Assembly: GCA_963765495.1 (NCBI GenBank)
Contig: CAVXWP010000001.1
Location: 160,001-224,000 of the forward strand
DNA from: Blastocatellia bacterium
GTDB taxonomy: Bacteria; Acidobacteriota; Blastocatellia; UBA7656
Direction: 5' to 3'
Length of the DNA: 64,000 nt
Part shown: piece by piece, positions 5,760 to 24,700 of the stretch
Layout of the letters: each line of letters starts with the position of its first letter
Numbering within the stretch: position 1 is the first letter of the stretch
Program-made: the position numbers and the translations under genes
The notes under the pieces: model-generated
The model's input: the letters and a program-made list of their open reading frames with translations, nothing else
Told to the model about the DNA's origin: nothing
Database searches by the model: none

Positions 5760-8499
5760 ACTCTGGCAGCGAATCGAAGAGGTCTTTAGCGCGGCGCTCG
5801 ACGTTGCGGATGATGAGCGCGGCACGTTCCTTGTAGAGGCATGCGGCAGCGACGAGCCATTGCGTCGAGAAGTCGAGGCTTTGCTCGCGTCGCACAAACG
5901 CGCGGGCGATTTCATTCTAGCACCGGTCTTTGAAGTGGCTCTCAATCTTATCGAGCACTCCGAGGCCGCACTCGAAAAAGGCCGTAGAATTGGCCCTTAC
6001 GAGGTCGTCCGTGAAATTGGGCGAGGCGGCATGGGAACAGTCTATCTGGCCGCGCGCGCAGACGACGAGTACAGGAAGCAGGTCGCCATCAAGGTTATCA
6101 AGCGCGGCATGGATTCGGATGACATCCTGCGGCGGTTCCGCAACGAGCGGCAGATTCTCGCAAGCCTCGACCATCCGAACATTGCCCGGCTGCTGGACGG
6201 CGGCACGACCGAGGAGGGCTTGCCTTATTTTGTGCTTGAGTATATTGACGGTGCGCCCTTTGACAGGTATTGCGACGAGCACAGACTGCCGACATTGGAG
6301 CGCTTGCAACTCTTCCGCAGAGTTTGCGAGGCGGTGCAATATGCACATCAAAACCTTATCGTCCATCGGGACCTGAAACCGAGCAACATCCTGGTCACAT
6401 CCGAAGGTGAGCCGAAATTACTCGACTTTGGGATTGCCAAACTCCTCGATCCCGATTTGATCGAAGAGGTCTCCGCGCAAACGGAGACCTCCATGCGCCT
6501 GATGACGCGGGATTACGCCAGCCCCGAACAGGTTCGCGGCCATCGCGTGACTACGGCGACAGATATTTACAGTCTGGGGGTGGTGCTTTACGAAGCGCTG
6601 ACGGGTGTCCGCCCTTACAAGTCCAACCCTGCGTCGCCGGACGGTCCATCACAGGCAAGTCCCGAATCCGAGCCGTCAAAGCCAAGCGACGCGATTGCGG
6701 ATTCAGGATCACGGCGTGCGGGCTCCACGATCTCATCTTCAAATCCGCAATCCGGTATCCACAATCCGAAACTGCTCAGAGGAGATCTGGACAACATCGT
6801 TTTGATGGCGCTGCGAAAAGAACCGCAACGCCGATACGGCTCCGCGGCAGAGTTCTCGGCGGATATTCAAAGATATCTCGACGGGCTTCCAGTCATGGCC
6901 CGCAAGGATACTTTACAATATCGCCTGAGCAAGTTTGTCCTGCGTAATCGTGTTGCCGTGGCGGCGGCTGTGCTCATCCTCCTGACCGTGGTGGTTGGCG
7001 TCGCGATGACAGTTCGGGAAAAACGCAAAGCCGACAGAAGGTTCAGTGAGGTGCGACATCTGGCCAACTCACTCATATTCGAAGTGGATGACGAAATCCA
7101 GAAAGGGCCCACGAAGGGTCGCGCTATGATCGCCAAAAGGGCGCTGGAGTATCTCGACAATCTGGCTCGGGAGTCGGGCAACGAGTACGGGCTGCAACTT
7201 GAACTGGCCGCCGGGTACCTCAAGATCGGAGATATTCAGGGCAAGCCGTATCGGCCAAATCTGGGTGACACTGCCGGCGCGGAGGCGAGCTATCGCAAAG
7301 CAAAGGCGATTCTGGAATCACTGACCGCCGTTGAGCCGACCGACCTCGAAGCACAGCGTTATTTGAGCCTGAGTTATCAGAGCTTAGGCCGCGTACAGCA
7401 GCGCAATGGCGATTGGAACTCAGCGTTGGAAAGCGAGCGGAAGGCGGTGGCAGTCAGTGAGGCCTTGCTCGCTGCGAATCCGAGCAGCCTGCAATATCGC
7501 AATCTGCTGGCAGATAACTACCTGCATTTTGGCGAAGCCCTGTACCTGACAGGAAGAGAGACAGCAATCGCCGACCATCATCAGGCAATCGAGTACTTCC
7601 GCAAAGCGCTGGTGATTCACGCAAGTCTTGCCTTGGCAGAGCCGGACAAGGGTGAATATCGCTATGCCGCAGGAGTGGATTATGAATATGTGGGAATCGC
7701 TTTCAATCGGCTTGGCGATATGACGGGTGACGTCGAGAATTATCGCGCGGCGCTTGAGAATCATCGCAAAGAGCTTGAAATCAACGAAGCACTGGCCGCC
7801 TCGGATCCTTCAAATGCGGCCTACCGGCGCATCGTCGCCGATGTCTACGGCGAGGTCGGATTGTCGCAGCTGAAGCTCGGGCGGCCTGCCGAAGCATTAG
7901 AGAACCTGCGCCACAGGTTGGCTATTTTTGAATCGATAAGAACATCCGACCCGACCAATGTCGAAGCCCGGCGCGACGTGGCCAACTCTATGGCCGATCT
8001 TGGCCAGGCAATGGCGCAGAAGGGCGACCTGTCCGGAGGGTTGGCGCAGGAGCGCAAAGCCGTGGCGATCCTGCAAGCGTTGAGCGAAGCCGAACCTGCG
8101 AACACGGAGACGCGCAACACTCTGCGGTTTTCGTACGAAGCAAGCGGCGAGATGGAAGAAAAGATCGGCGATTACGCGGCGGCGCTGGGGACTTATCAGA
8201 AAGCCCTGGCCCTGCTTGAATCGTGGGCGTGCATCGAACCCGAGATTGTGCTGGTCCGTCGCCTGCTCGCAATCGAAAACGCGAACATCGCACGTGTGCA
8301 TGAAACAGCCGCAGCAGATCGAAAGTCATCAATTAATATACAAAAAGCGCATTGGCGAGCGGCCAAAGAGCGGTATCAACGCAGCCTCACCACTTGGCGG
8401 GATTTACAGGCAAAGGGCCAACTCAGTGAGGCAGACGAAATTGCCGTTACCGAACTCACGAAAGCCATTGCGAAATGCGACCTGGCTCTATCAAAATGA
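5743..8499 (+). CDS. Membrane Ser/Thr protein kinase with C-terminal TPR region
   Basis: GRGGMG, VAIK, HRDLKPSN, DFG, YASPEQ motifs; TM helix; TPR-like repeats; overlaps the ECF gene. Confidence 0.93.
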   Translation: MAMQAELWQRIEEVFSAALDVADDERGTFLVEACGSDEPLRREVEALLASHKRAGDFILAPVFEVALNLIEHSEAALEKGRRIGPYEVVREIGRGGMGTVYLAARADDEYRKQVAIKVIKRGMDSDDILRRFRNERQILASLDHPNIARLLDGGTTEEGLPYFVLEYIDGAPFDRYCDEHRLPTLERLQLFRRVCEAVQYAHQNLIVHRDLKPSNILVTSEGEPKLLDFGIAKLLDPDLIEEVSAQTETSMRLMTRDYASPEQVRGHRVTTATDIYSLGVVLYEALTGVRPYKSNPASPDGPSQASPESEPSKPSDAIADSGSRRAGSTISSSNPQSGIHNPKLLRGDLDNIVLMALRKEPQRRYGSAAEFSADIQRYLDGLPVMARKDTLQYRLSKFVLRNRVAVAAAVLILLTVVVGVAMTVREKRKADRRFSEVRHLANSLIFEVDDEIQKGPTKGRAMIAKRALEYLDNLARESGNEYGLQLELAAGYLKIGDIQGKPYRPNLGDTAGAEASYRKAKAILESLTAVEPTDLEAQRYLSLSYQSLGRVQQRNGDWNSALESERKAVAVSEALLAANPSSLQYRNLLADNYLHFGEALYLTGRETAIADHHQAIEYFRKALVIHASLALAEPDKGEYRYAAGVDYEYVGIAFNRLGDMTGDVENYRAALENHRKELEINEALAASDPSNAAYRRIVADVYGEVGLSQLKLGRPAEALENLRHRLAIFESIRTSDPTNVEARRDVANSMADLGQAMAQKGDLSGGLAQERKAVAILQALSEAEPANTETRNTLRFSYEASGEMEEKIGDYAAALGTYQKALALLESWACIEPEIVLVRRLLAIENANIARVHETAAADRKSSINIQKAHWRAAKERYQRSLTTWRDLQAKGQLSEADEIAVTELTKAIAKCDLALSK

Positions 8500-8638
8500 C
8501 AGGCTTCCAGACCTTGATCGAAGTGTTGCGCTCGCCCTGCTAATTGTTTCGAGTTCTTTCGCCCCCATCGCCTTCTTTAGAAATCACTCTTCCCTCTAGA
8601 TCGATCTTCACTTCCAGATAGACTGCAATGGTCTTCCT

Positions 8639-9020
8639 GTGTCCGTACACACAGTGTCTGCTTCGCCGCATGAAGTCAGACTTGTCGGAGAAACTCTCAC
8701 TGAAGTTTTTACAGACCAAAAGCCTCAGCGACTCATAGGAGACAGAGCGTATGACTCGGACCCATTGGATGAGGAACTTCGACAGCAAGGAATGGAGATG
8801 ATCACGCCACACAGGTCGAATCGTGTAAAAGCACCGACGCAAGATGGGCGAGTGTTGAGACGATACAAGAGGAGATGGAAGGTGGAGAGGTTGTTTGCGT
8901 GGCTGCAAAACTTCCGGCGAATAGCTACGAGATTTGACTACTTGGATGAGAATTATCTTGGATTTGCTCATCCTAGCTGCATCCTGATCTTGCTCAGATG
9001 CTATTTATGAGACTGCTTCT
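8639..9020 (+). mobile_element. IS5-family transposase, 3' fragment with right end
   Basis: LIGDRAYDSD...RYKRRWKVERLFAWLQNFRRIATRFD; N-terminal part missing. Confidence 0.85.
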
Positions 9021-9040
9021 ATTACTACTGTGTTACAAGT

Positions 9041-9382
9041 TCAACCAGACGTTTTGAGCTTTGTCGCGCGCTCAGCGGCAAGAGTCGAACTGTCGCCGTG
9101 GTGAATCTTGATCTTGCCTTCGAGTTTATTCTTGCTCTCCATTTCCAGCCATCCGCTTCCTGATGCCGGATCACATTCATCATTTCCGTCCCACGTGAAT
9201 TCAAATCTATCTCCGTCCTCGCTCTTCACAACCTCTCCGTCGATTTGCCCTGAGACGAGCCCGAACTGAAAGTCACCGCCTCCATCGCGCCGTATCCTTA
9301 TATAGGCTTGGACTTCCATATTCAGGTAGTCGTCGCCCCACATCTCCATCTCTATGATCTGCCACGTCCCTTCGTATTTCAC
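9041..9382 (-). CDS. Hypothetical protein (small beta-rich)
   Basis: 113-aa ORF with GGAGG RBS; FTWDGNDECDPASGSGW. Confidence 0.7.
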   Translation of the reverse strand: MKYEGTWQIIEMEMWGDDYLNMEVQAYIRIRRDGGGDFQFGLVSGQIDGEVVKSEDGDRFEFTWDGNDECDPASGSGWLEMESKNKLEGKIKIHHGDSSTLAAERATKLKTSG

Positions 9383-9398
9383 GGCCCCCTCCTTCGTG

Positions 9399-9590
9399 TC
9401 ACTTCTTGATTGGTGGTCGGTTTTTGACCGTTTCGACCAGTCGCTTTACCGTGGTCGTCACAGGCAGCGTCGATAGAAAATACTTCGTCGGTTCGGGCTC
9501 ACTCTCGGGCCACTCGATCAGTAGCCACTCCTGCTCGCGCACCTCGCCCAGTGTATAGTCCCGATGTGCCGAGCGAACCCGCAACGCCAG
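9399..9590 (-). pseudogene. IS701-family transposase fragment
   Basis: VRSAHRD...EWLLIEWPESEPEPTKYFLSTLP. Confidence 0.75.
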
Positions 9591-9850
9591 AAATCGTCCG
9601 CTGAGTTTCCGCTAGTGAAGTTACGTTGCGCTCTTACACGGCCTGTGAAATCTATATGCGTAGACCGCAATCCGGTGTCCAATACGGCAACAGTAAGACC
9701 ATTCCCTGTCACCGAAAATGCCTGCCGCGCCTGTCTAACGCGGATTAGTGTGTCAACTTCCAGATCTTGAATGCGAATTTATCTTGTTTCAAACTGCACT
9801 GGAGGCTCAGGATTTGGAATTCGACGAATTTGAGATGACGTATTACTCAT
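9591..9850 (-). pseudogene. Subtilisin-like (S8) peptidase N-terminal remnant
   Basis: MSNTSS...ETR*IRIQ...TGNGLTVAVLDTGLRSTHIDF; in-frame stop; truncated by the IS701 fragment. Confidence 0.7.
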
Positions 9851-10075
9851 GGAAGTCTACCTCTCTTTTTTCAGAAGCCTAATACCTTAAACGAAGATAT
9901 CCAAACGCGTGTCGGCTAAAACCTCCGCGCGTGGATACACCTCCTGCAATTGTAAGCACGAAATAGTCTTTATAATGCGATAACCAGACCAACGCCTCTT
10001 AATCTTCCTATTACAAAGCACCCACATCACAATATGACGAAAGTGGAAGAATATTACATATAATCAGAGAAGAGA

Positions 10076-10160
10076 GCCTAACGACAAGTTCAGCGGCGCG
10101 CCGGTAGCTGGTGGAACACGAGATGGTGGAATGCGCATCCGCTGGAATGAGCGGTTAGGC
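10076..10160 (-). repeat. Integron attC site (complete, 85 bp)
   Basis: Minus strand GCCTAAC-cgctcattccagcgga...cgcgccgctgaacttgtc-GTTAGGC. Confidence 0.9.
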
Positions 10161-10198
10161 TTTGAGGCACACGTTACATAGATTCATCTGCTGTACTG

Positions 10199-10723
10199 CT
10201 ATTGCCTTTTTGTTGAAGAAGATTCGAACTCAAGGTTCGATCTCTTAATGTCGATCAGTGGTCCCAACTCATAAACATTCCTGTACCCGTAGTTGTAAAG
10301 GGCGATATATGTCGAAATGTTTAATGATGCAGTCGGTAATTTTGTCGGGAACGGTCCTTCTGCATCCCGGAAGTTGTTATTGCAATAGATGAGAATGGTA
10401 GTCTTCTTGTCGGGAAGTAACTGCCTGAGGCTCTCGACTGTTATGTCGGAGAAATTCAAGTTGATTGCTCCTCTTACGTGGAGTTGATCGTACTTCTGTC
10501 TGCTTCGTGCGTCTAGGATGAAAGTTCCAGCTTTCCGACTTATGTGAATGAAATCTGCTTCTGAGATCCTCCTAGATTCCCGATATTTGGCAGCCTCAAG
10601 CGAGATACGGAGATATCCATCCATATCAATCGCTGGGTTAGTGATGTCAGACTTATCTTGAGCGTTGACGATAGAAAAAAGAGAAGAAATGGTAAACGAA
10701 AGGATCAACACTCGAAATTTCAT
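10199..10723 (-). CDS. Secreted rhodanese-like domain protein (gene cassette)
   Basis: Signal peptide; ILDARS...HVRGAINL...ILIYCNNN; bounded by attC sites. Confidence 0.8.
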   Translation of the reverse strand: MKFRVLILSFTISSLFSIVNAQDKSDITNPAIDMDGYLRISLEAAKYRESRRISEADFIHISRKAGTFILDARSRQKYDQLHVRGAINLNFSDITVESLRQLLPDKKTTILIYCNNNFRDAEGPFPTKLPTASLNISTYIALYNYGYRNVYELGPLIDIKRSNLEFESSSTKRQ

Positions 10724-10811
10724 AAGCAAAATACTCCCAATTGCAGCAGAATAATCTACAGATAAGACGCTCGAAGACCGAGTTTGTTCCAAAAACGTTG
10801 GATTAACGGAA

Positions 10812-10896
10812 GCCTAACGACGAGTTCAGCAGCGCGCCGTGGGCTTCGATGCAACTGAGTAGGTGGATGCGCGTCCGCTGGAATGAGCAGTTAGGC
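10812..10896 (-). repeat. Integron attC site (complete, 85 bp)
   Basis: Minus strand GCCTAACtgctcattccagcggacgcg...cgcgctgctgaactcgtcGTTAGGC. Confidence 0.9.
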
Positions 10897-10924
10897 GGGT
10901 GACCAGGGAACAAAACCGCATCGT

Positions 10925-11494
10925 TTAGATTTCTACTTTATCGTATATTTCTGTTAGTGCTAGCTCACAGCCAATCGATACGAGTTCAATCTCGTCTGCT
11001 AGCTTCTTAGTTTCGGCCATAATCCATCGGCCATCAAGTTGCTTTATGAAATGCTCAACATGAGGTTTCTGTTGAGCGATGAGGATATATTCTTTGAAAG
11101 TATCTATCTCGCGGTATTGCTCAAATTTCCCACCACGATCATAATCCTTCGTCGAGTCGGAAAGCACTTCTACAATAAGTGTTGGGTTTATCAATGTGTC
11201 TTTCTGTTCATCGCTAAATTCTGCTTTATCGCAGACAACAATCACGTCAGGATAAGTGTAAAGGCCCGCCGGGCTAACCCTTACGCGTAAATCTGTGGAG
11301 TAGACTGTACATGGGCGACTCTTAAGCTGTGATCGCAGTTCAGATACGACATTCGTAACGATTAGAACATGATTTGGACTAGCACCCCCCATTGCAAAGA
11401 TTTCTCCATCCAAAAATTCGTTTTTGGAATCAGAGTTTCTTTCAAAGGCCAGATACTCATTTGGTGTAAATTTTGTCCTCGGTTGTGAAGCCAT
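10925..11494 (-). CDS. Uma2 family endonuclease (gene cassette)
   Basis: YTYPDVIV...NPTLIVEVLSDSTKDYDRGGKF. Confidence 0.9.
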   Translation of the reverse strand: MASQPRTKFTPNEYLAFERNSDSKNEFLDGEIFAMGGASPNHVLIVTNVVSELRSQLKSRPCTVYSTDLRVRVSPAGLYTYPDVIVVCDKAEFSDEQKDTLINPTLIVEVLSDSTKDYDRGGKFEQYREIDTFKEYILIAQQKPHVEHFIKQLDGRWIMAETKKLADEIELVSIGCELALTEIYDKVEI

Positions 11495-11552
11495 ATCTCC
11501 CCCCCTAAACTCCAAAGAGTACATGTGAATTCTACCACTATCAACATTGTTC

Positions 11553-11563
11553 GCCTAACGACG
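11553..11563 (-). repeat. attC R' half-site, truncated next to the ISKra4 remnant
   Basis: gcctaacgacg is identical to one end of the attC at 10812 and the attC at 17887; the rest is absent. Confidence 0.65.
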
Positions 11564-11570
11564 TAGGGCA

Positions 11571-12281
11571 GGGTGTAATTAAAAATGGGACTCAAGCATG
11601 GATAGATTCCACAAATACAATATCCAAAAGAAAGGAATCCTATCCCACTATGACCTTAGTTGATGAGATTATAGAAGCTGTCACCCAGTGGAGCCAACAG
11701 CTTGAGCAATTCCAAAAACTCAATCCCCTAGAAGCGAGCAAGGTTTCTGTCTTGGAAGAAACTGCTCAACAATTGGGGCGTAAAGTCGCTCTCATCGGCC
11801 TTCAACGCTCTATCCATCAGCCTGATCCCTGTGCCGTCCCTGCTTCATTTGATTGCCAGTGTGAAGTTGGGCGACTCTCCTTCCAGCGATTGGCTCAACG
11901 TCGTGTTCGCACTCTTGTCGGCGAGATTACTTTCTCAAGACCTTATTACTACTGTCGAGAGTGTGGGGCCAGTCGTTGCCCTTTCGATGAGGAGTTGGGA
12001 CAAAGCAAGAGAGAAATATCGGCTGGCCTTGAGCGAGCCTTATCCTTGTTGAGTGCACATCTATCTTTCTCAACAGCAACACTTGTCTTGCAAGAGATAG
12101 GTAATGTGAAGCTCTCAAGCCGACAAGTCGAAACTGTGGCAGAAACAGTAGGAGTGGATGCGATCTTAGCGTTGAGATGTTGGATACTCAATGGGAGACT
12201 CGATGAGTTACGACCAAAGCCAGGAATAGTAATCGAGTGGGCTAAAGCTGCCTGACGCTGCAACTTTGACTTCGTGCACCC
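11571..12281 (+). mobile_element. Internally deleted ISKra4-like element (ORF 11650-12255)
   Basis: GGGTG...CACCC ends; RTLVGEITFSRPYYYCRECG N-terminus fused directly to the C-terminal AILALRCWILNG; DDE core missing. Confidence 0.7.
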
Positions 12282-12320
12282 ATGCACAAGCCGGCAATTT
12301 GTCTATTCGCTTCTATATGC

Positions 12321-13634
12321 CTATGTTCCGCGAACACGTTTCTTTTGCCCTTCTTTTCTTAGAAATAGGATGTACACGCCTTCAAGAATTCCCGACAAGC
12401 CAATTAGTCCCGCCAGTACCCAAAGCTGCGAGGGGCTGTTCCGTAATACGTAGCTCATTAGGGCTAGAAGCGCAGCGGCGCAGAACAGGACACCGCAAAC
12501 AGCGAGCAGTCTGTTGCTTTTCGCTTCTTTCCACTTAACCAGGTTGGCAAGGTTGACGAGCGCAAAAATGATCAAGAAGCTTGCGCTAGCCATCATCGAG
12601 ATGCTGGACAGGTCAGCCAGGTTCGATAAGGTCAGCGCTGCTCCAGACGTGATTAGCAGGCCGACGGGCTGGTTCCAGACTTTGCGCTCGAAGTTTTTTG
12701 GTAGCTCTCCCTCGACAGCAATGGAATAGCTTAGACGAGCAGCGCCGTACAGGGTCGAGTTGAGGGCGGAGAGGGTTGCCAGTACGGCCGTAATCCCTAC
12801 CAGCGTGAACCCAAACTGCCCTAGCGTTGGTCTTGCCGCTTCGGCCAGAGCGAAGTCTTGTGCTGCTGCAATCTTATCGGGTGTCAACGAGCCAACGACA
12901 ATCAAAGCGATCAGGACATAAAGCAGTATCACAAACAGTACCGTGAAGTAATAAGCCCTTGGAAGGGTTCTGCGATAGTCTTTTACGGATGCGGCAGTAT
13001 TTGCTATAAGCTCAAACCCTTCGTATGCAACGAATATGATCATCCCGGCGCTCACAATCGACAGCACCGACGGCCAGCCACTCGGCTTTATGCGCTGCGG
13101 CTCTATGGCGCTAAAACCCAAAGCTACAATTAGCACGAGGATGACGACCTTCAGGGCGACGATATATGTCTCGGTCTTGCTGACGATTACGGCACTCAGC
13201 AGATTGAGGGCAGTTGGTAGGACGATTCCGGCAGTTATCAAGACATGACTCATTGCCGATGTCTGCAAGTGCTGGGGAAGAAACGTTGCAGCATAGTTCC
13301 CAAAAGCTACTGCGTAGAGGGATAGTGTGACGATGTATCCCAGCCACAGGAGCATGTTGCTGGTGCCCGTAAACCAGCCGATGTTAAACGCCTTGTCGAT
13401 AAAAATAATGGTTCCCCCATTATTGGGGTACGCAACCGAGAGTTTGGCGTAAGAATAGGCAGTTAGTAGGGCGACGCAACCTGCCACCACGAATGCTACT
13501 GGCGTTGCGCCCCCAGCGAGCACGGCTGCCAAACCTAAAACTGCAAAGATGCCACCGCCGACCATCCCGCCAACGCCGATTGCCATGGCTCCGAGAAAGC
13601 CTATCTGCCCCTCCTCAACTCTTCGGGTATCCAC
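12321..13634 (-). CDS. APC family amino acid permease
   Basis: GGMVGGGIF, FVAYEGFE, about 12 TM helices. Confidence 0.9.
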   Translation of the reverse strand: MDTRRVEEGQIGFLGAMAIGVGGMVGGGIFAVLGLAAVLAGGATPVAFVVAGCVALLTAYSYAKLSVAYPNNGGTIIFIDKAFNIGWFTGTSNMLLWLGYIVTLSLYAVAFGNYAATFLPQHLQTSAMSHVLITAGIVLPTALNLLSAVIVSKTETYIVALKVVILVLIVALGFSAIEPQRIKPSGWPSVLSIVSAGMIIFVAYEGFELIANTAASVKDYRRTLPRAYYFTVLFVILLYVLIALIVVGSLTPDKIAAAQDFALAEAARPTLGQFGFTLVGITAVLATLSALNSTLYGAARLSYSIAVEGELPKNFERKVWNQPVGLLITSGAALTLSNLADLSSISMMASASFLIIFALVNLANLVKWKEAKSNRLLAVCGVLFCAAALLALMSYVLRNSPSQLWVLAGLIGLSGILEGVYILFLRKEGQKKRVRGT

Positions 13635-13835
13635 GATAAGTTCCTACGATCCTTGTTGATGTCATCCAAGTCGACGCGAGTGTTCTATCATGTTGGTGAC
13701 GATACTTAAAGCAATTTGTTCTTGGGGCGTAGCATCGCTCATCGTCGAATCTCTCTCTTATTGGGCCTGGAGAGTCCCAAGCTAGGGGACCGAGTCGGGT
13801 CGAAAGCGGACATCGCCTTTGTCACAGGAAACGCC

Positions 13836-13919
13836 ACCTACGCCGAGTTCAGCGGCGTGCTGTCGTGAAAGGGATAATAAAACGGTGGCACGCGCGTTCG
13901 CTGGAATGAGCAGTTAGGC
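13836..13919 (-). repeat. Integron attC site with a mutated R' core
   Basis: Same body as the other sites (ctggaatgagcagttaggc; gagttcagcggcg). R' reads GTAGGT on the minus strand, lacking one T. Confidence 0.8.
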
Positions 13920-13985
13920 TCAGCTTTGACCTGTTCCTCACATGTTCAGCATAAGTATGTTTAACGGATAGTCACTTATTGAATA

Positions 13986-14684
13986 CTATTTCTTCCCGAA
14001 CAGGTGCCCCAATGATTGGAACATATCTGTATAAAAATTTCCTCCGATCTCCCTGACAACCTCGAAGGGTAAATGAGGCGCTCCAAAAAACGGACGCAGA
14101 GTCCAAGCCAATTGTGTTCCTACAAATGCAAAGAGTATTAGCCATAATCTTAGAAACATGCGTCGAGTGTGCTGCGACTGAGTCCCATCTTCCGATAATT
14201 GGACATACATGCGATTGAAAAATAAGATCCCTAACATTCCTGAAACTGCGAAAAATACAACATTTATTATCTTGAAAAACTGATAACTGCGAGTCGTCAC
14301 AATGAAGAATAAAGTGATTGGTGAGAAACCGACAAGCGCGAGGCCAATGATCGTGCTGCCTGTTGACAACAATACAAATGTTTGAAGAATGGACCGTTTA
14401 GACCCGAAGAAAGAACTGAAAATGAAGAGTGTAGGCATGCAGATTGCAGTGGTCAACAAGAATAACAACGGAAGTTTGATACAAGATGAAATGGATTGGA
14501 GGAGGCTATGCTGGCTTCCGATAATCGCGCCATAAATACCAAATGATGCAGAAGCAATTGCATTTAGCTGAACCAGCTTGCGCTTCAAATTGACACCATC
14601 GGCAATTTCCTTCACAAATGGATCGCGATTCTGGAGAATGGAAATGAGAGTTTTCATAAAAAAAGCACCAACAATGAATATCAA
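13986..14684 (-). CDS. Multi-pass membrane protein (Yip1-like; gene cassette)
   Basis: KLPLLFLLT..IC.P...W...FVGTQLAWTLRPFFG; 5 hydrophobic segments. Confidence 0.7.
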   Translation of the reverse strand: MIFIVGAFFMKTLISILQNRDPFVKEIADGVNLKRKLVQLNAIASASFGIYGAIIGSQHSLLQSISSCIKLPLLFLLTTAICMPTLFIFSSFFGSKRSILQTFVLLSTGSTIIGLALVGFSPITLFFIVTTRSYQFFKIINVVFFAVSGMLGILFFNRMYVQLSEDGTQSQHTRRMFLRLWLILFAFVGTQLAWTLRPFFGAPHLPFEVVREIGGNFYTDMFQSLGHLFGKK

Positions 14685-14792
14685 TAGCAGTTAAACATGT
14701 AAGTAAGACTAAAAAAGCGAAAAGATTCTATGCATGATAGTTGAGATAATCAAACTGAATAGGTGAATTTATTGAAAACCTTGCGTCATAAT

Positions 14793-14811
14793 GCTTAACG
14801 GGGAATTGAGG
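14793..14811 (-). repeat. Probable attC R' half-site next to the IS110 end
   Basis: Minus strand ctcaattcccc-GTTAAGC at the position expected for the start of the 13.9-14.8 kb cassette. Confidence 0.45.
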
Positions 14812-14825
14812 ACAACCACGCGAGC

Positions 14826-16318
14826 CTACTATGAAAATGTCCGGATGTGGCTCACGCAGCAGGTTGAACCTCTTCAACAGTGACTTTCAATCCCGTTGCT
14901 TCGAGCCGATCAATCAATCGCTTCCTTTGCCTCTCTACATTCTGTTTGTCAAGGTAATCTCCTCCCAACTCTTTATAACTCATCTGTCGTTCGATCACAT
15001 GATAAACAATTACCAAAAGTGTGTGGCCGACTGCCACCAATGCCTTCTTCTTCCCCAGCCGCTTCGCTAGCCTTCTATACTGCGCTGACAGATATGTCTG
15101 CTTTGTATGACTCGCTGCCCACGCCGCTTGTACCAGCGCCTCCCGCACATAGGTATTCCCTTTCGTCGTCTTCCCGCTACGCCGCTTGCCTGCCGATTCG
15201 TTATTTCCCGGACACATCCCTGCCCAACTCGAAATATGGCTGTCTGTCGGAAAGCGATCCATATCCACTCCGATCTCTGAGACTATTGTTTCTGCCACTC
15301 TCTCTCCTATCCCTGGTATTGTTTGTAGCAGTTCTACGGCTTTAGAGACAAAAGGGTCGGCGCTCTCTCCCACCTCCTCGTCAATCTGTTGCTCGACTCG
15401 TTTGACGGCAACTTCTACTTCTTCATATCGGGTCAGTAACTCGCCCAGCACAAAGCGTTGAGATTTCGTCAGTCGGCCTTCAAGAGCACGTTTGAGTTGG
15501 GGACGCTTGCTTCGCATACGTCGGCGAGCAAACTCACTCAACTTCTCGGCATCGCGCTCACCTGCTGCCAGTGCTCGCAACATCTGCCTGCCACTGACTC
15601 CCAAGACGTCGGTGGCGACTTGTCCGAGCTTGATGTTGGCACTCTCGATCAACTTCTGTATGCGATTGGCAATAGTCGCATTCTCTTTAACCAACTGCTG
15701 ACGATAGCGTGTCAACTCTCTCAACTCCCTTATCTCAAGCGGAGGAATGAAGCTGGGCTTTAACAGACCGTGGCGCAGCAAATCGGCCAACCATTCGCAA
15801 TCTTTTACATCGGTCTTACGGCCTGGAATACCTTTGTAGTGGCGGGCATTGACAAGCAAGACTTCTACGTTGCCTTCAAGGATGTTGAAGACAGGCTTCC
15901 AGTAAACACCCGTGCTTTCTATTGCAGCAATCGTGCAGCCTTCGGCTATGAGCCAATCCGAAAGACGAAGTAAGTCATCGGTCATAGTAGAGAAAGTGCG
16001 GACTTCTTTCTTGCCGTGCTTAATGAGGCAAGCGACAACAGTCTTGGCGTGAACATCGAGGCCGCAACAACAAGAATAGATGATCTCCATAGCTACCTCT
16101 TTCTGGCCAGGGCGTGAGAGCCTTGTTAATGAAGAGTCTACTATGCGTGCTCGAAGCAACAGTTGGTGGTGCCAGAAAGGCTCTCAGGTCAGGCTGCTAT
16201 TCGGGCTTGAGGCACCAAGGCTGTACGACCTTATCTGACGCCGCTGACCACAGAGAGTTTAGTCGAACTCGCCCATATTTTCATCATTCGTGGCGAAGCC
16301 TCGCTTCATGACGGGCTG
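14826..16318 (-). mobile_element. IS110-family element (ends approximate)
   Basis: Intact transposase; subterminal inverted ATGAAAATGT (14831) / ATATTTTCAT (16275); about 200-nt noncoding region upstream of the ORF. Confidence 0.8.
14852..16090 (-). CDS. IS110 family transposase (DEDD recombinase)
   Basis: GLDVH, IESTG, KTDVKDC, TIPGIG, ESAGK motifs. Confidence 0.95.
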   Translation of the reverse strand: MEIIYSCCCGLDVHAKTVVACLIKHGKKEVRTFSTMTDDLLRLSDWLIAEGCTIAAIESTGVYWKPVFNILEGNVEVLLVNARHYKGIPGRKTDVKDCEWLADLLRHGLLKPSFIPPLEIRELRELTRYRQQLVKENATIANRIQKLIESANIKLGQVATDVLGVSGRQMLRALAAGERDAEKLSEFARRRMRSKRPQLKRALEGRLTKSQRFVLGELLTRYEEVEVAVKRVEQQIDEEVGESADPFVSKAVELLQTIPGIGERVAETIVSEIGVDMDRFPTDSHISSWAGMCPGNNESAGKRRSGKTTKGNTYVREALVQAAWAASHTKQTYLSAQYRRLAKRLGKKKALVAVGHTLLVIVYHVIERQMSYKELGGDYLDKQNVERQRKRLIDRLEATGLKVTVEEVQPAA

Positions 16319-16605
16319 TGGTGCGGGAATACGGGTCATTCGGAAACGCCCCAATCGCGACGGGCGAGATAGCGCAACAAAGGGTTCACGAAACCCGACC
16401 CTCCTGTCGCGTCGAGTCGTGCCCGTCTCGCCGTTGGCCGCGAGCGCGACCAGATGTGGATTGATCGCGGGTCAAATCAAGCAATCGGTGACGATTGGCC
16501 CCCTCTGAGATTTCCGTGTGACGGCAGATGCATCGAGAGCGCTCTCAATACCCGCCGTGCCGCCTCTAATTGCGTCGATGATGTCCTTGACTCGTAAGTA
16601 TGCAC

Positions 16606-17597
16606 TCAGTGCTTGGGAGATCTCGCGACTGATGAAAGGCAATCCACCAGCCACCGGGCAAGATCCGCCTCGTCGACGATCGACCAAGCGTGCGGGAGGC
16701 GAATGCCGCCGAGGTCCGGACGTACGCCCTTACCATGCGTGACGACGAGTTGCGCTCGGGTGTTACCAAGTACACGTAGCTGGTTGATCATTGCCGCAGC
16801 ATCGACTGCGTTGATGCTGTAGTAGTCGGCTGCGTAGTGATTGATCCAGAAGTCGATGTCCGGCTCCGTATACAACCTCACAGGTGTCGCGCGTAGCAGC
16901 CTGGCGTTACCCCCATCTGGTGCGAAGGCGACGAGTGGCGACGTGCGCCGATATGCATCTGGCACCTCGTCAGGCGACCCGCCAAGGTTACTCCGTAGCG
17001 CCTCAATGATCGCGTGCGCCTCGCTGGATTCTTGTTCGTTGGTCCCGCGACGAATGAGTAGATCCATGCCCCGCCACCACCGTTCGAAGTCGAGCGGTGG
17101 GTCAACACCAAATACTGCGAATGGCGGTGGCGAGTTCGGAAGCGCGCCGGAGATGCAGCGCTCAGCATAGCGTACGGCTCCGGTCCCGCCAGCCGAGAAG
17201 CCGCCTATAGCGACCCGATCTCTCGCACTCGGAGCCGGGACGTCGCGTCGGCAACGATGGCGTCTAGGGCTGACAGCGAGGCATCGTCGAGGTACCCGGT
17301 GCCAGCCGGCGTGGGGCTCACGATGATCGTTGCAACGCCACGTGCCGCTAGCAATCCAGGAAGTTTGGAGTTGGCGAAGGAGTTGACAGTTCCGCCGTAC
17401 TCCGGAAGGAGTACTAGGAGCGCGCGCGACCTCGACGGGCGGAAGAGTCGGTAGCAGTTCTGCGTCGTATCACCGGGTGTCAAACAGATGACTGTGCTTG
17501 CCGACTGCCGTGGCTGGTGCGCGCCCACCGTACTTGCTTGGATAATTAAAGCGAGCAGGCCAAGCCCAAGTGCCAGTCCAACTAGTCGAAGCCCCAT
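16606..17597 (-). pseudogene. Secreted alpha/beta hydrolase, frameshifted near 17215
   Basis: Signal-peptide ORF ends at 17205. The shifted frame continues IAIGGFSAGG (GxSxG)...DPPLD...PHAWS into ORF 16606-17067. Confidence 0.7.
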
Positions 17598-17886
17598 TCG
17601 ATTACCTCCCTTACACGTTGATGTCAAATCTGCTGTGCGCCTGTGTGCTGCGGTGTACGTCGCGCGCGGCGAAAAGGTTGCACGCGTCGCTCGTTCAGTG
17701 AACTACATTTACAAGCCTTTTTACGTGTCGATACGACAGCCAGCAAATTCACCACTACGAGGAAAGTTCGACCCGTGATAGATCTGCAAAACACAGACAT
17801 CCGCTGCGCGACCCCTGGAACCATCAGGGGCAACAGAAGCATGTATGTTAGCGTGCCCGGTTCCGCTTGCAGCACCAAATCGTGCC

Positions 17887-17971
17887 GCCTAACGACGAAT
17901 TCAGCGGCGCGCTAGAGGTAAAGGAATAATGAAACGATGGTATGCGCGTCCGCTGGAATGAGCAGTTAGGC
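17887..17971 (-). repeat. Integron attC site (complete, 85 bp)
   Basis: Minus strand GCCTAACtgctcattccagcggacgcg...cgcgccgctgaattcgtcGTTAGGC. Confidence 0.9.
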
Positions 17972-18043
17972 GGCCTCCTAAATCAATATGTGAAGGAACA
18001 TTGGGATTACCTTCCTTGCTCAAACCTTTCTATTATCCTCTTG

Positions 18044-19251
18044 CCTGAAGGATGGACACATTTGCTAATTGAACGAGTAGCAACAAGTTATAAACCTGTG
18101 GAAGATTTGTTTTGTGAAAAAAGATCAATCTTCTGCTACTCGTTTGCGTGATTATATCACTGCGCTGCTGCCTTCGGCGCACGGACATCAACTTAAAGCG
18201 ATCTGTGATTTCGTCGCTGCGATCATTGAAAATCAAACTGCCAATCAGGCTGAGTTGGCTCGCTGTTTCGGCTCTCAGGAGGCTGCTGTTAAACGCCTAT
18301 CTCGCTTGATTCATAACAAGCGCATCCATCCTGATGATCTTGCTGAGGGCGTTTTGCTTCAAGCCTTGTCTCAATTGCCTAGACGAGGCAAAATCCGTCT
18401 GGCAATTGATTGGACTATTGAAGGCGACCATCACCTGCTCGTTGTTTCGCTTGTGACTGGCTCTCGCGCTGTGCCCGTTTATTGGAGAGCTTACTCTCAG
18501 AGCCTGCTTAAGGGCCGTATGCGCCGCTATGAGGTTGCTGTAATCAAGCGCGTCGTCTCCGGCTTTAACAATCGCATTGGTCGCCGTCGCCTGATTGTCA
18601 CAGCAGATCGTTGGTTTGCGGATGTCGCTTTAGCGCAACTGTTTGAAGATATGAAGCTTAGCTACATTATCCGAGTCAAAAACAGCACGAAGATTTACTA
18701 TGGTGGTCAATGGCAAAATCTCAAGCGAATGAGATTTTCAGGCAATGCGCGAGGTCGCAACTTTGGGCGCTGCAATTACAGAGAGGGTTCTCAGCACAAG
18801 TTGTATGTGAGTATGAGCCGAGCCAAAGACAAGGAAGGAAAGTGGGAGATATGGTATCTGATAAGCAACAACCGCTACAGTGCAAAGCAAGCAGCAAATG
18901 AATACAGCAGACGCTTCGGGTGCGAGCAGGGATTTAGAGATGTGAAATGGGAGAAAGGATTTTCTCGAGCGAGAATAGAGGATGTGAAAGCGTGGTCGAG
19001 GATGTTCGCACTGTTTGCGATAGCGTTGCTGGTAGTAGTAGTGCTAGGAATGAAGTTGTTAGCTAGAGGGAGAAAAGGAGCCAGGGAGTTGCTGAGGAGA
19101 GTAGCGAGGCGAAAAAAAGGAAGATGGGAATTGAGCATCGTGAGTGCAATGGTGAGCCTGCTGAGAATGGATAAAAGCTTGTTTGAGCATCTCACTCCTC
19201 AAGCGAAACTCAACCTCGAGGCTGCTTTATAAAATGTGTCCATCCTTCAGG
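18044..19251 (+). mobile_element. IS4-like element with 20-bp perfect terminal inverted repeats
   Basis: cctgaaggatggacacattt (18044) / aaatgtgtccatccttcagg (19232-19251); no target duplication visible. Confidence 0.85.
18114..19232 (+). CDS. IS4-family DDE transposase
   Basis: LAIDWT, TADRWF, YSRRFGCEQGFRDVK (YREK-like). Confidence 0.85.
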   Translation: MKKDQSSATRLRDYITALLPSAHGHQLKAICDFVAAIIENQTANQAELARCFGSQEAAVKRLSRLIHNKRIHPDDLAEGVLLQALSQLPRRGKIRLAIDWTIEGDHHLLVVSLVTGSRAVPVYWRAYSQSLLKGRMRRYEVAVIKRVVSGFNNRIGRRRLIVTADRWFADVALAQLFEDMKLSYIIRVKNSTKIYYGGQWQNLKRMRFSGNARGRNFGRCNYREGSQHKLYVSMSRAKDKEGKWEIWYLISNNRYSAKQAANEYSRRFGCEQGFRDVKWEKGFSRARIEDVKAWSRMFALFAIALLVVVVLGMKLLARGRKGARELLRRVARRKKGRWELSIVSAMVSLLRMDKSLFEHLTPQAKLNLEAAL

Positions 19252-19325
19252 ATCGCCGGGTAAAAATCAAGGTAAAGGCTCTTGCGCCCGTCTGAAATCT
19301 TCTTTTCTCTGACCGTCACTTTCAT
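19252..19325 (-). pseudogene. N-terminal stub of a tyrosine integrase
   Basis: MKVTVREKKISDGRKSLYLDFYPAI, an arm-binding-domain-like start that runs directly into the IS end. Confidence 0.7.
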
Positions 19326-19348
19326 AATTGCTTATGTCCTTCCCTCTA

Positions 19349-19699
19349 TCACTCAAACAAAGCTTTGAGGCTTGTTCGCTTGATAATGGTTCGGCCTCCC
19401 AATTTGGTTGCCGGGATTTTCCCACTTTGCAGCAGCCGATAAAGACTTGCTCGACTAAGCCCCAACAGGGCACAGGTTTGGGTGATGCTCAGGTATTCTT
19501 TGGCTTGAAGTTCTTCGATAGGTTTATTGCGAACTGTCTGAGTCTCTGTATTTGAGTTTTCGATTTTGGCTTGCCGAACCCTGGCCTTGTAAGCGCGTTT
19601 GGCGCACACATCCCCACAATACTAAGTTACGGTAGTTCTCGCCGTGAATTCGTTTCCGCAATGCTTACAAATTCTTTGAACACGGATACTTGTCGTCAT
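19349..19699 (-). pseudogene. Zn-finger + MerR-like HTH excisionase with a premature stop
   Basis: MTTSIRVQRICKHCGNEFTARTTVT*YCGDVCAKRAY...YLSITQTCALLGLSRASLYRL; TAG at 19622-19624. Confidence 0.8.
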
Positions 19700-19715
19700 A
19701 ATTTCGCCCGCGATT

Positions 19716-19843
19716 GTCTCAGAACGTCTCAATTCGTCTCAGTATGTCTCAATAGCTGTCGTGATTTCGCCCTGAGCCAAGAAATCTTGTACCTCGCTTG
19801 TACCTCGACCTCTAAGGTACAAGAAAGGTACAAAAAAGTACAG
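19716..19843. promoter_or_regulatory. Phased repeats, putative Xis / integrase-arm binding sites
   Basis: GTCTCA x4 at 10-bp period (19716, 19726, 19736, 19746); CTTGTACCTCG x2 and inverted AGGTACAA x2 at 11-bp period. Confidence 0.6.
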
Positions 19844-19954
19844 ACTAAAGATGAAAATCCATAAGAAACGATTGAAACAAAATGCGAGATAACTATAGTT
19901 TTTACTGTACTTATAGTGATTTGTTATTGGATTTTGATGGCTGGTTATGGCGGG

Positions 19955-21337
19955 TTACTTTCCGATACAAAAAGTAGAGAAGATCTGGCCAAGGATGTCT
20001 TCGGTCAATGTTTCGCCCGTGACTTCTCCGAGTGCAAAAAGCGCGGCGTGCAGCCTGAGCAATACGACCTCTTCAAACTCGCTCTGAATCATCAGGACGC
20101 GGGCATCCTTTAATAGCTCGACCGCGCTTTGCACCGACGAGTGCTGTCTGGCATCGGTTATCATTATGTCGTCGCGTTCTGTGCTTGCCTCCCCCGACAG
20201 CCGCAGGAAGATCGCTTCGGTCAAGCGATCAAAGCCGCTTCCGGTCAACGCCGAAAGGGCGATAGCTTCTTCTTCGCTCTCGCCCTCATCCCGAGGCAAG
20301 TCCAATCGAATCGCGCAAGGCAAATCTATTTTATTGAGCAGGATTATTCGCTTGCTTCGCGGCACAAGCTCAAGCAGTCGGGCGTCGTCTTCGGTCAACG
20401 GCTCGCTTTGATCGAAGACCAGAAACGATATATCCGCTTCATCGATTGCCGAGCGGCTTCTGGTGATGCCGAGGCTTTCTATCACATCGCTCGTCTCGCG
20501 TATTCCTGCCGTGTCAATCAGGCGCACGGGAACGCCTGAAATCGACGTACTTTCATAAAGCGCATCTCTTGTGGTTCCGGGCAACTCGGTGACTATTGCC
20601 CGGTCGCTTCCGACCAGCCGGTTGAAGATCGAGGATTTCCCCACGTTTGGCCGTCCGATGATCGCAAGCTGAAATCCTTCTTTGACGTAGCGGCCAAAGG
20701 CGAAACTTGCCGCGATATCGGTCAGCCCTTCGATTACGCGATCAAGCTTCAAAAGCAGGGCGGTGATTGTCTCGGGCGAAATGTCCTCTTCAACAAACTC
20801 GACCGAAGATTCCAGATTTACGATGATTTCAACAAGCGTGTTCTTGAGCGGAGTGAGCCTTTTTGAGAGCGCGCCTTCGAGTTGTCGTGTGGCCACGCGA
20901 GCCTGATATTCGGTCTGCGCGTTTATTACATCTCTTACGGCTTGAGCCTGAGCAATATCTATGCGTCTGTTAAAGAATGCCCGGAAGGTGAATTCGCCGG
21001 GTTCGGCTACGCGCGCGCCTTGCGCCGTAAGTAAAGCGAGCAGGCGGGCGAGGATAACGGGGCTGCCGTGGCAACTCAACTCCACGACATCTTCGCCCGT
21101 GTAAGAGTGCGGGGCTTTGAAGTAGACAAGAATCGCTTCGTCAATCACGTTGTCTGTCGCGCCATCAATTATGTGACCGAACTGCGCGCGAGCAGGCTGA
21201 CCGAGTGGCACGTCCGCGGCCCCGTGAAAAACAGTCGCGGCTATCAGAAGCGAGTCGGGACCGCTCAACCGCACTACTCCTATGCCTCCGCGACCGGGTG
21301 GTGTAGAAAGGGCTGTGATTGTGTCACCCTGTTGCAT
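19955..21337 (-). CDS. mnmE: tRNA modification GTPase MnmE
   Basis: [39 protein letters not shown]-terminal FCIGK. Confidence 0.98.
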
Positions 21338-21347
21338 TGGAATTGAG

Positions 21348-21463
21348 ACGTGATGCGAGATGCGTGATTCGTAATGCGTGATTTATGAGGCGAGCCATGA
21401 ACCTGTAAACAGCTTTGCGTTAGAGTCACGCATCACGTATCACTCATCACGAACCACGTATCA
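21348..21463. repeat. Inverted heptamer array (GTGATGC / GCATCAC)
   Basis: gtgatgcgagatgcgtgattcgtaatgcgtga ... tcacgcatcacgtatcactcatcacg. Confidence 0.75.
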
Positions 21464-21913
21464 TACGGGCAAGATAGTGACTTTGCGGTCGGGGCCGTTG
21501 CCCCGGCTTTCGGTCGTGACCGTTGTGTCATCGGCCAGAGAGAGGTGGATTATGCGCCGCTCGTTGGGCGTCATCGGATCAAAGCTGAAAGGGACGCGCG
21601 AAAGGCGGACTTTCTCGGCCGCTTTTTCGGCCATCAGACGCAATTCCTTTTCACGCCGCGCGCGATAATTGCCCGAATCAAATACTATGTGCGATTCTTC
21701 GTTCGTTCGATGCGTGAGCGCGCGATTGGCCAGGTATTCCAGCGCGTCGAGCAGTTCCGCGTTGTGTCCGAGCAACAGGGCTACATCGTCTCCGCGCACT
21801 TCGATCTTAAATGTATCTTCATCAGCCACAGACGCGGCGGTCAGATCAAGCCCGCTTGCTTTTAGGACTATGTTAGTGAACTCAACGACAAAGTCTTTAT
21901 TATCTTCTGACAT
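21461..21913 (-). CDS. jag: Jag/KhpB (EloR) RNA-binding protein, KH + R3H, short form
   Basis: LDALEYL...DSGNYRARRE...MTPNERRIIH; synteny between yidC and mnmE. Confidence 0.9.
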   Translation of the reverse strand: MSEDNKDFVVEFTNIVLKASGLDLTAASVADEDTFKIEVRGDDVALLLGHNAELLDALEYLANRALTHRTNEESHIVFDSGNYRARREKELRLMAEKAAEKVRLSRVPFSFDPMTPNERRIIHLSLADDTTVTTESRGNGPDRKVTILPV

Positions 21914-24078: not shown

Positions 24079-24136
24079 TATGAAATTACCTGATCAAATC
24101 AATTCGCGGCCCTGGTATTGGGCCGCTCCCTTATAG

Positions 24137-24346
24137 TTATTTTACGGGATCATAACCACCCGGATGAAACGGGTGACATCTGAGCAGTCGTCTGATTCCC
24201 ATATAAGTACCGCGCAATGCGCCGTACTTTTGAATTGCTTCGATTGCATATTGAGAGCAGGTTGGGGTAAATCTGCACGCGGGCGGCAGCAGCGGTGAGA
24301 TGAGCATTTGATATGCTCTTACAAAAGAAACCAGAACCACCTTCAC
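24137..24346 (-). CDS. yidD: Membrane protein insertion efficiency factor YidD
   Basis: [10 protein letters not shown]...[13 protein letters not shown]. Confidence 0.97.
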
Positions 24347-24696
24347 TTCTTACCCGCCTTCTCAAGAAAAGTTGTGAAGTCGTCTTCCAGTTCGACGTAA
24401 CCGACCGAGACCAGAGACTTCTTAACATTAATGACTATATCAACTCCCTCAGGGACAAGCCATTTGTTTTTCCTGAAGACCTCGCGCACGAGCCTGCGCG
24501 CGCGATTGCGCTCGACCGCATTGCCGACCTTCCGCGTTACGGTTATGCCGATTCGAGGATTGATAACCGGGTTCGGCAGCAAAAACGCGGTGAAATACCT
24601 GGCCTGATACTTCCGGCCTTCGTCGTACACGCGACGGAAATGACCACGCCTGAGAATCCTCTCTGTCTTAGGAAACTTTTCAGATACCTCACCCAT
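24343..24696 (-). CDS. rnpA: Ribonuclease P protein component
   Basis: [25 protein letters not shown]. Confidence 0.95.
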
Positions 24697-24700
24697 TACT

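What the first reader, a model, noticed from the sequence alone, without database searches (positions are those of the whole stretch)
10076..17971. Integron-type cassette array without an integron integrase, inside an mnmE island
Seen: four near-identical 84-85 bp attC sites (10076, 10812, 13836, 17887) plus two half-sites (11553, 14793). All are oriented with single minus-strand ORFs: rhodanese-like, Uma2, APC permease, membrane protein and hydrolase. Cassette ends are complementary beyond the core (aaGCCTAAC/GTTAGGCtt; cGCCTAAC/GTTAGGCg), as expected for excisable circles. No intI is in the window. Known: this is the CALIN configuration, and homogeneous attC sites typify sedentary chromosomal integrons. 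Inference: a lineage-specific attC family in a probable Acidobacterium, carried by or trapped in an integrative element. The IS4-associated deletion may have removed intI/attI. This is the best candidate system in the window.
Basis: partly seen in the sequence, partly recalled or inferred. Interest (0 to 1): 0.75.

Follow-up and report, generated by a model that had tools for sequence, protein, structure and literature searches.

The report
Decaying integron cassette array lacking integrase
This is a small, IS-damaged row of integron gene cassettes with no integron integrase nearby (a CALIN) in an acidobacterium, an ordinary example of a common, well-described element.

Summary
The four sites are real attC sites. 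A covariance model built only from sites in other genomes ranks exactly these four first, on the expected strand (24.7-52.9 bits), and it also finds 2 of 3 class 1 attCs in a control. No intI is in the 64 kb window, so the CALIN call holds. Several details were overstated. The sites are 66-79% identical, not near-identical. One (13836) has lost the GTT crossover. Two of the five genes lack their own complete attC. The extra end complementarity is no better than in non-cognate pairs. The arms are shared with betaproteobacterial and dfrB3 attCs, so they are not lineage-specific. New here: next to mnmE lie an excisionase pseudogene and a 24-codon stub of a non-IntI tyrosine integrase. An IS4 without target duplication cuts the stub and sits where intI/attI should be. 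The island's far end was not found, so 'inside an island' is unproven. The host is probably Blastocatellia. CALINs are abundant, and acidobacterial attCs are already modelled. Verdict: new member of a known kind, low interest.

The parts
10076..10160 (-). attC-1 (85 bp), complete R''/L''/VTS/L'/R'; bottom strand = window plus strand
   Evidence: CM R1 41.3 bits; box scan; pair counts
10199..10726 (-). Cassette gene, rhodanese-like protein (175 aa); the only cassette flanked by two intact attC sites
   Evidence: PF00581 E 2e-9; the 4 of the top 120 homologues that name an organism are Pyrinomonadaceae/Blastocatellia, 65-68% identical
10812..10896 (-). attC-2 (85 bp), complete
   Evidence: CM 41.8 bits
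10925..11494 (-). Cassette gene, Uma2 putative restriction endonuclease
   Evidence: PF05685 E 4e-33
11553..11563 (-). attC remnant: R' box plus 4 bp, identical to the family end; rest missing
   Evidence: 11/11 match to sites 10812 and 17887; chance control
11571..12281 (+). Internally deleted ISKra4-family element, 7 bp from the 11553 remnant, no target duplication seen
   Evidence: NF033572 E 4e-18 over model positions 15-161 of 422, below cut-off; ends read
12321..13634 (-). APC amino-acid permease; probable cassette gene whose own attC is largely lost; 201-bp leader, GC 53%
   Evidence: PF13520 E 6e-39
13836..13919 (-). attC-3 (84 bp), R' damaged by a 1-bp loss in GTT; probably inactive
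   Evidence: CM 24.7 bits; alignment A2; missed by the strict scan
13986..14657 (-). Cassette gene, uncharacterised membrane protein
   Evidence: no curated family above cut-off; Atlas look-alikes at 0.95-0.97, unnamed families
14793..14810 (-). Possible attC remnant (R', spacer, L'-like) of another sequence type
   Evidence: arm pattern, about 1.1 chance hits per 64 kb; not found by the CM
14826..16317 (-). IS110-group element with CT core at both ends and 227-bp upstream leader (ends inferred)
   Evidence: NF033542 E 2e-88, above cut-off; ends and leader
16606..17627 (-). Frameshifted alpha/beta-hydrolase-like gene, GC 61%, no complete attC behind it
   Evidence: six-frame reading; Atlas 0.97 to alpha/beta-fold hydrolase cluster; no Pfam hit for the pieces scanned
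17887..17971 (-). attC-4 (85 bp), complete, best-folding site
   Evidence: CM 52.9 bits; fold z -3.3
17972..18043 (-). 72-bp remainder of a cassette cut by IS4
   Evidence: sequence; no frame continues the integrase
18044..19251 (+). IS4-family element, 20-bp perfect terminal inverted repeats, no target duplication; marks a deletion or rearrangement junction
   Evidence: NF033591 E 2e-30, below cut-off; ends
19252..19325 (-). 24-codon N-terminal stub of a non-IntI site-specific tyrosine integrase
   Evidence: 62.5% identity over 24 aa to the Bacteroides integrase of L009, tblastn E 5e-5, 0 of 1000 shuffles as high
19349..19699 (-). Excisionase-like HTH gene with an internal stop at codon 26
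   Evidence: TIGR01764 above cut-off; 68-73% identical homologues named Acidobacteria/Blastocatellia
19955..21337 (-). mnmE (trmE), intact host gene; its 3' end is the likely integration site of the xis-int element
   Evidence: Pfam; homologues naming an organism are Blastocatellia/Acidobacteriota at 69-71%
8639..9851 (.). Distal debris: IS5 fragment, 113-aa ORF, IS701 fragment and broken S8 peptidase start following attC-1

Best explanation
This is the remnant of an integron cassette array (a CALIN) in a Blastocatellia chromosome. An integron integrase built it in the usual way: it recombined the folded bottom strand of each cassette's attC at the G/TT of R' and stacked the cassettes head to tail, reading right to left in the window. 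The intI/attI/Pc end would lie to the right of attC-4. There an IS4 without target duplication joins a cut cassette to a cut integrase gene of an mnmE-targeting element. I infer that an IS4-associated deletion or rearrangement removed the head of the array and most of that element's integrase. ISKra4, IS110, IS701 and IS5 insertions and point mutations then eroded the rest. The array is now static unless an IntI acts in trans. Only the rhodanese cassette lies between two intact attC sites, and attC-4 could still accept or release DNA. SHOWN: attC anatomy, orientation, no local intI, IS ends, integrase stub. INFERRED: the former intI at the IS4 junction, the order of events, and recombination competence. 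That it is a CALIN: about 0.95. The confidence given is for the whole history.
For: An independent CM ranks the four sites first, on the predicted strand, and detects two class 1 attCs. With the canonical extrahelical G and T, 94% of 83 cells pair, against 27-40% for slid controls; the structure was derived from these sequences, which favours it. Genes end 28-66 bp before R''. IntI1 has no hit in six frames, best E 0.56. The IS4 has perfect 20-bp repeats, no duplication, and unrelated truncated sequence on its two sides. Polarity puts attI on the IS4 side. IS elements neighbour 38% of CALINs and are a proposed cause (PMC4889954 section 20). Host genes are unbroken, so the lesions look like decay rather than sequencing error.
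Against: No trace of intI or attI survives, so their former presence is not shown. Half of CALINs occur in genomes that encode IntI elsewhere, and the rest of this 1.31-Mb contig (length) and genome was not available. There is no covariation among the four sites. Three of the four fold no better than shuffles (z -0.5 to -1.2). The surrogate CM gave one false hit at 18.9 bits in the control and missed the qacE attC, so 24.7 bits for attC-3 is near its noise level. IS-free reconstructions at the two half-sites do not give complete attCs.
Confidence: 0.6

Rival explanations
1. No intI ever sat here. An IntI encoded elsewhere inserted a first cassette at a secondary (attG) site, later cassettes entered at its attC, and the IS4 lesion is incidental.
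For: IntI inserts cassettes at GWT sites, and many small CALINs may arise this way (10.1101/2022.09.11.507474 section 27 and passages). 95% of CALINs have no intI pseudogene nearby. No intI remnant is present.
Against: The array is cut by IS4 inside a cassette exactly at its proximal end. Five or six cassettes with uniform 85-bp sites fit a former integron well.
Confidence: 0.25
2. The array and the mnmE element were never neighbours. Recombination between two copies of the IS4, or a mis-assembly across them, joined two distant loci, and the head of the array with intI may survive elsewhere in the genome.
For: The flanks have no target duplication and are unrelated. No second mnmE attachment repeat is in the window. 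Splitting of integrons by rearrangement is a described route to CALINs.
Against: The whole 9-20 kb zone on both sides of the IS4 is IS-rich and mostly low in GC, as expected of one decayed island. There is only one copy of this IS4 in the window.
Confidence: 0.12
3. The repeats are REP-like intergenic palindromes or terminators, not attC sites.
For: Folding is weak for three sites, there is no covariation, and the genome-wide distribution is unknown.
Against: They match a CM trained on other genomes that also finds class 1 attCs, with clear strand asymmetry. The box spacing and extrahelical bases are canonical. All copies lie in one 8-kb stretch of 64 kb, in one orientation. There is no Rfam match.
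Confidence: 0.03

Closest known systems
CALIN (Cury et al. 2016, PMC4889954)
   Same: At least two attC sites under 4 kb apart on one strand and no intI nearby. The size is typical (83% have fewer than six sites), there are no resistance cassettes, and IS elements lie in and beside the array.
   Different: Nothing categorical. It is heavily eroded: 1 of 4 sites is damaged, there are two half-sites and five IS pieces, and it sits beside an mnmE element stub.
Acidobacteria chromosomal attC set (Ghaly et al. 2021, PMC8352920; model from 120 attCs)
   Same: By eye, the model's top-strand R'' and the L''-plus-stem consensus (positions 1-26) agree with these sites at most positions.
   Different: The model is 106 positions long against 85 bp here. 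I could not run it, so no score against its 64-bit cut-off is available; its sensitivity is only 30%.
Soil/freshwater-type attCs: betaproteobacterial array L008 and dfrB3 attC of R751
   Same: Nearly the same L boxes and flanking stem with the extrahelical G and T.
   Different: The L'-R' spacer is 6 bp there and 5 bp here. Lengths vary there (58-105 bp), whereas the sites here are uniform at 84-85 bp.
trmE/mnmE-integrating islands (SGI1 family; PMC7449626 and PMC8409611, search listing only)
   Same: An integrase module at the 3' end of trmE/mnmE with integron cassettes nearby.
   Different: The integrase stub resembles Bacteroides site-specific integrases that lie behind an HTH gene (Tn4555 tnpA-int layout). 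It was not compared with SGI1 Int. There is no class 1 integron, no mobilisation gene and no attachment repeat.
IS1111-attC group (passages of PMC11187229)
   Same: An IS110-family recombinase lies next to an attC remnant.
   Different: The long non-coding region is upstream of the gene (IS110 group), not downstream, and the empty site is not a complete attC.

Membership tests
attC site | Complementary R''/R' boxes with AAC/GTT | tested here: met
   Met in 3 of 4 sites; 13836 has lost one T of GTT
attC site | L''/L' boxes, unpaired central spacers, extrahelical bases on the bottom strand, variable terminal structure | tested here: met
   4 of 4 sites: 5/5-bp spacers, extrahelical G and T, VTS 29-68% identical. 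The box layout is from my own knowledge; the terms are as in PMC4889954 Fig. 2
attC site | Located just downstream of an ORF, same polarity | tested here: met
   3 of 4 sites follow intact ORFs at 28-66 bp; the fourth follows a 72-bp IS-cut remainder
attC site | Passes the IntegronFinder or attC-taxa covariance model | not testable with these tools
   The published models could not be run. Surrogate CM R1 (8 non-window sites) scored all four and found 2 of 3 class 1 attCs in the control
attC site | Recombined by IntI | not testable with these tools
   Needs a recombination assay
CALIN | At least two attC sites within 4 kb on the same strand | tested here: met
   Gaps of 651, 2939 and 3967 bp between sites; definition
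CALIN | No intI or intI pseudogene nearby | tested here: met
   IntI1 tblastn and phmmer on six frames of 64 kb, best E 0.56 and 0.65; no PF00589 among the families listed for 65 ORFs (only the best 5 shown per protein)
Sedentary chromosomal integron | intI with attI next to the array | tested here: not met
   No intI; attI cannot be searched for without a known sequence
Sedentary chromosomal integron | More than 19 attC sites, or present in all strains of the species (operational rule in PMC4889954) | tested here: inconclusive
   Only 4 sites; no conspecific genome was found
mnmE/trmE-integrating island | Tyrosine integrase module beside the mnmE 3' end | tested here: met
   Met as a remnant only: xis pseudogene plus a 24-aa integrase stub
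mnmE/trmE-integrating island | Direct repeat of the mnmE 3' end at the far boundary, enclosing the array | tested here: not met
   One match only at up to 3 mismatches in 20 nt; nothing with E below 0.6 in blastn-short
IS1111-attC group | Long non-coding region downstream of the transposase and insertion into an attC end | tested here: not met
   227-bp leader upstream and about 25 bp downstream; the reconstructed empty site is not a full attC

The most novel reading that the evidence does not exclude
A Blastocatellia family of integrative elements that target mnmE carries its own integron as cargo. It would be an acidobacterial counterpart of SGI1 with a non-class-1-5 integron, moving cassette arrays between soil bacteria, and this locus would be a decapitated copy. 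The roughly 70% identical excisionases in other Blastocatellia records would mark intact copies.
Probability: 0.15. Interest if true: 0.45.

Novelty: new member of a known kind. Interest (0 to 1): 0.17.

Why it matters
It matters little. CALINs are counted in the thousands (2961 in 21,105 complete genomes; 10.1101/2022.09.11.507474 section 27), integrons are already listed for Acidobacteriota (PMC8618304 passage), and an Acidobacteria attC model exists (PMC8352920). The locus adds one Blastocatellia example and a tidy case of IS-driven decapitation. A search for 'Blastocatellia' with 'integron' gave 3 papers, none on this subject by title (listing only), so class-level descriptions may be thin in the searched library. 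It would matter more only if intact mnmE elements carrying intI plus an array were found, since that would be an environmental route for moving whole integrons.

Tried and rejected
(1) Genome scan with the conserved 19-nt arm: 8 loci among 185,579 species representatives, about the chance count by my estimate (about 9). Of these, 2 are real attC-like sites (L002, L008), 4 are one Pseudomonas context and 2 are unrelated. No Acidobacteriota hit, so the source genome and relatives with intI were not reached. (2) IntI in L002 and L008: none (best E 0.005 over a short stretch, and 0.46). (3) Plasmid searches with attC-2 (best E 0.6 among the 30 of 79 rows listed), with the rhodanese protein (no match) and with the IS110 region (5 records, transposase part only) gave no context. 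(4) Extended end complementarity as evidence for circles: rejected. (5) IS-free reconstruction of the two half-sites gave no complete attC. (6) Promoter and terminator scans were at shuffle level: 10 against 10.4, and 10 against 11.7. (7) Rfam on 8000-21500: no match. (8) The mnmE attachment repeat: not found. (9) Lysine of 'IS110 targets attC': not supported, and untestable with one copy. (10) An RYYYAAC motif near 9733 is coding sequence of the S8 fragment, not a site. (11) PMC13323075 passages gave nothing usable. Left unchecked: the exact-sequence cluster look-up for the cassette proteins, the metagenome and viral contig collections (closed), file 5 of the PMC8352920 supplements (scanned) and bioRxiv supplements (closed). 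These could hold taxon-level counts of CALINs in Acidobacteriota.
Full report
OBSERVATION. The repeat finder returns one four-copy family in 10-18 kb (D10). Self-BLAST shows no further full copy in 64 kb, only an 11-bp exact match at 11553. The full sites are 10076-10160, 10812-10896, 13836-13919 and 17887-17971. They are not near-identical: pairwise identity is 66-79% overall, 81-96% in the two arms and 29-68% in the central 31 bp.

ARE THEY attC SITES? Read on the minus strand, each has R'', a 5-bp spacer, an 8-bp L'', a variable centre, a 7-bp L', a 5-bp spacer and R' (box layout from my own knowledge). On the plus (bottom) strand the arms pair with an extrahelical G in L'' and an extrahelical T two pairs further on. 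With that structure, 94% of 83 cells pair, against 27-40% when the partners are slid. The structure came from these sequences and there is no covariation, so this is descriptive only. A strict box-and-stem scan finds 3 of the 4 sites and nothing else in the window, and 1 hit in 10 Markov controls. For an independent test I built a covariance model from 8 sites of two other genomes. It ranks the four window sites first, on the plus strand, at 52.9, 41.8, 41.3 and 24.7 bits. Their reverse strands score 15-18 bits and the best other locus 12.5. On plasmid R751 the model finds the dfrB3 and DUF1010-cassette attCs (34.1 and 32.5 bits), misses the qacE site and gives one false hit at 18.9 bits. Against this, only attC-4 folds better than shuffles (z -3.3; the others -0.5 to -1.2). 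Site 13836 has lost one T of the GTT triplet and is probably inactive.

CASSETTES. All cargo genes are on the minus strand. Rhodanese, Uma2 and the membrane protein end 38, 28 and 66 bp before an R''. The APC permease and a frameshifted alpha/beta-hydrolase have no complete site behind them. Each is followed by an IS and then an R' remnant: an internally deleted ISKra4 element before 11553 and an IS110 before 14793. The 11553 remnant is solid (0 of 30 controls hold the 10-mer). The 14793 arm is of another type, and its pattern, written after I saw the site, arises about 1.1 times per 64 kb by chance. Removing either IS in silico does not give a full attC. Only the rhodanese cassette lies between two intact sites.

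INTEGRASE. IntI1 from R751 finds nothing in six frames of the window (best E 0.56 by tblastn, 0.65 by phmmer). By the definition in PMC4889954 (passages and section 20) this is a CALIN; the largest gap, 3967 bp, is just under the 4-kb threshold.

SURROUNDINGS. MnmE is intact, and its homologues that name an organism among the best 120 are Blastocatellia or Acidobacteriota at 69-71%; the protein lies on a 1.31-Mb contig. Behind mnmE is an excisionase-like gene with an internal stop. Its closest named homologues are Acidobacteria/Blastocatellia proteins at 68-73%. In plasmids, 11 of 12 hits are Bacteroidales, and in the two I fetched the HTH gene is followed by a site-specific integrase. The 24 codons after the window's excisionase match the N-terminus of one of those integrases at 62.5% (E 5e-5; 0 of 1000 shuffles as high). 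An IS4 with perfect 20-bp inverted repeats and no target duplication cuts the stub, and on its other side lie 72 bp of a cut cassette and attC-4. So the IS4 marks a deletion or rearrangement, and the polarity of the array puts intI/attI on exactly that side. No second copy of the mnmE 3' end was found, so the far end of the island, and whether it ever enclosed the array, is unknown. Host genes are unbroken, which argues that the lesions are decay and not sequencing error.

RELATED LOCI. The one genome scan, with the conserved arm, gave 8 loci. Two are real attC-like sites, in a Rhodanobacteraceae MAG and a betaproteobacterial MAG; none is from Acidobacteriota. The betaproteobacterial locus holds 17 same-strand model hits in 20 kb, 7 of them training sites. 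The arms are therefore a widely shared type, also close to the dfrB3 attC, and 'lineage-specific family' rests only on uniform length and spacers. By eye the sites agree with the first 26 positions of the published Acidobacteria model (PMC8352920 supplement 4, parts 24-25), which I could not run.

MECHANISM. Most likely (0.6), an IntI built the array, an IS4-associated event removed its head and most of the neighbouring element's integrase, and further IS insertions eroded it; it is now static unless an IntI acts in trans. The rivals are build-up at a secondary site by a distant IntI (0.25), a junction of two distant loci through IS4 copies or mis-assembly (0.12), and non-attC palindromes (0.03). 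The CALIN identity itself is about 0.95.

KNOWN CONTEXT AND VERDICT. CALINs are common: 279 in the 2016 survey, 38% with a neighbouring IS and half in genomes with IntI elsewhere (PMC4889954 section 20), and 2961 in a later one (10.1101/2022.09.11.507474 section 27). Integrons are listed for Acidobacteriota (PMC8618304 passage), and 120 acidobacterial attCs were modelled (PMC8352920 passages, section 12 and supplements; also PMC9176274 passages). trmE is a known island target (PMC7449626, PMC8409611; search listing only). IS1111-group targeting of attC is known (PMC11187229 passages), but this IS110 does not fit that group. The paper searches showed no title on a Blastocatellia CALIN or an acidobacterial mnmE island with an integron, but they cover only the open library. 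Verdict: real, ordinary, a new member of a known kind; interest 0.17.

Noticed in passing
window 16091-16317 (minus strand): The 227-bp IS110 leader looks like a bridge-RNA region. It holds an 8-nt match to the element's right end plus core, a 6-nt antisense match to the target flank on the 14793 side, and 7-nt matches in both senses to the other flank. Guide assignment is unresolved.
   Followed up: partly
window 11553-12281 and 14793-16317: Both half-sites keep the R' end and lose the rest on the side where an IS sits (7 bp and about 15 bp away). This could be IS insertion into attC followed by deletion, but two cases prove nothing.
   Followed up: partly
L008 282-19430: A betaproteobacterial MAG with 17 same-strand attC-like sites in 20 kb, several IS elements and no intI in the stretch held: a larger array than the one in the window.
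   Followed up: partly
L002 482-551: A single attC-like site near a contig end, downstream of a sulfate adenylyltransferase-like gene pair (annotation recalled from the translation, not scanned) in a Rhodanobacteraceae MAG.
   Followed up: no
window 19349-19699: The excisionase has a four-cysteine N-terminal part and 116-aa homologues at about 70% in other Blastocatellia records, suggesting a family of integrative elements in this class.
   Followed up: partly
window 21345-21463, 24703-24789, 37839-37945; 25118, 26443, 42103: Intergenic heptamer-repeat palindromes and a 67-bp repeat (families D11-D13), REP-like and unrelated to the attC sites.
   Followed up: no
window 28437-34507: Two adjacent large WD40 proteins with 14 matched repeats each; they dominate the repeat scan.
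   Followed up: no
window 19955-24753: An rnpA-yidD-yidC-jag-mnmE cluster; no DnaA among the 65 ORFs scanned, though this cluster often lies beside dnaA (recalled).
   Followed up: no
window 1741-2757: Two DUF433 genes followed by DUF5615, a toxin-antitoxin-like arrangement (recalled) with a duplicated DUF433.
   Followed up: no
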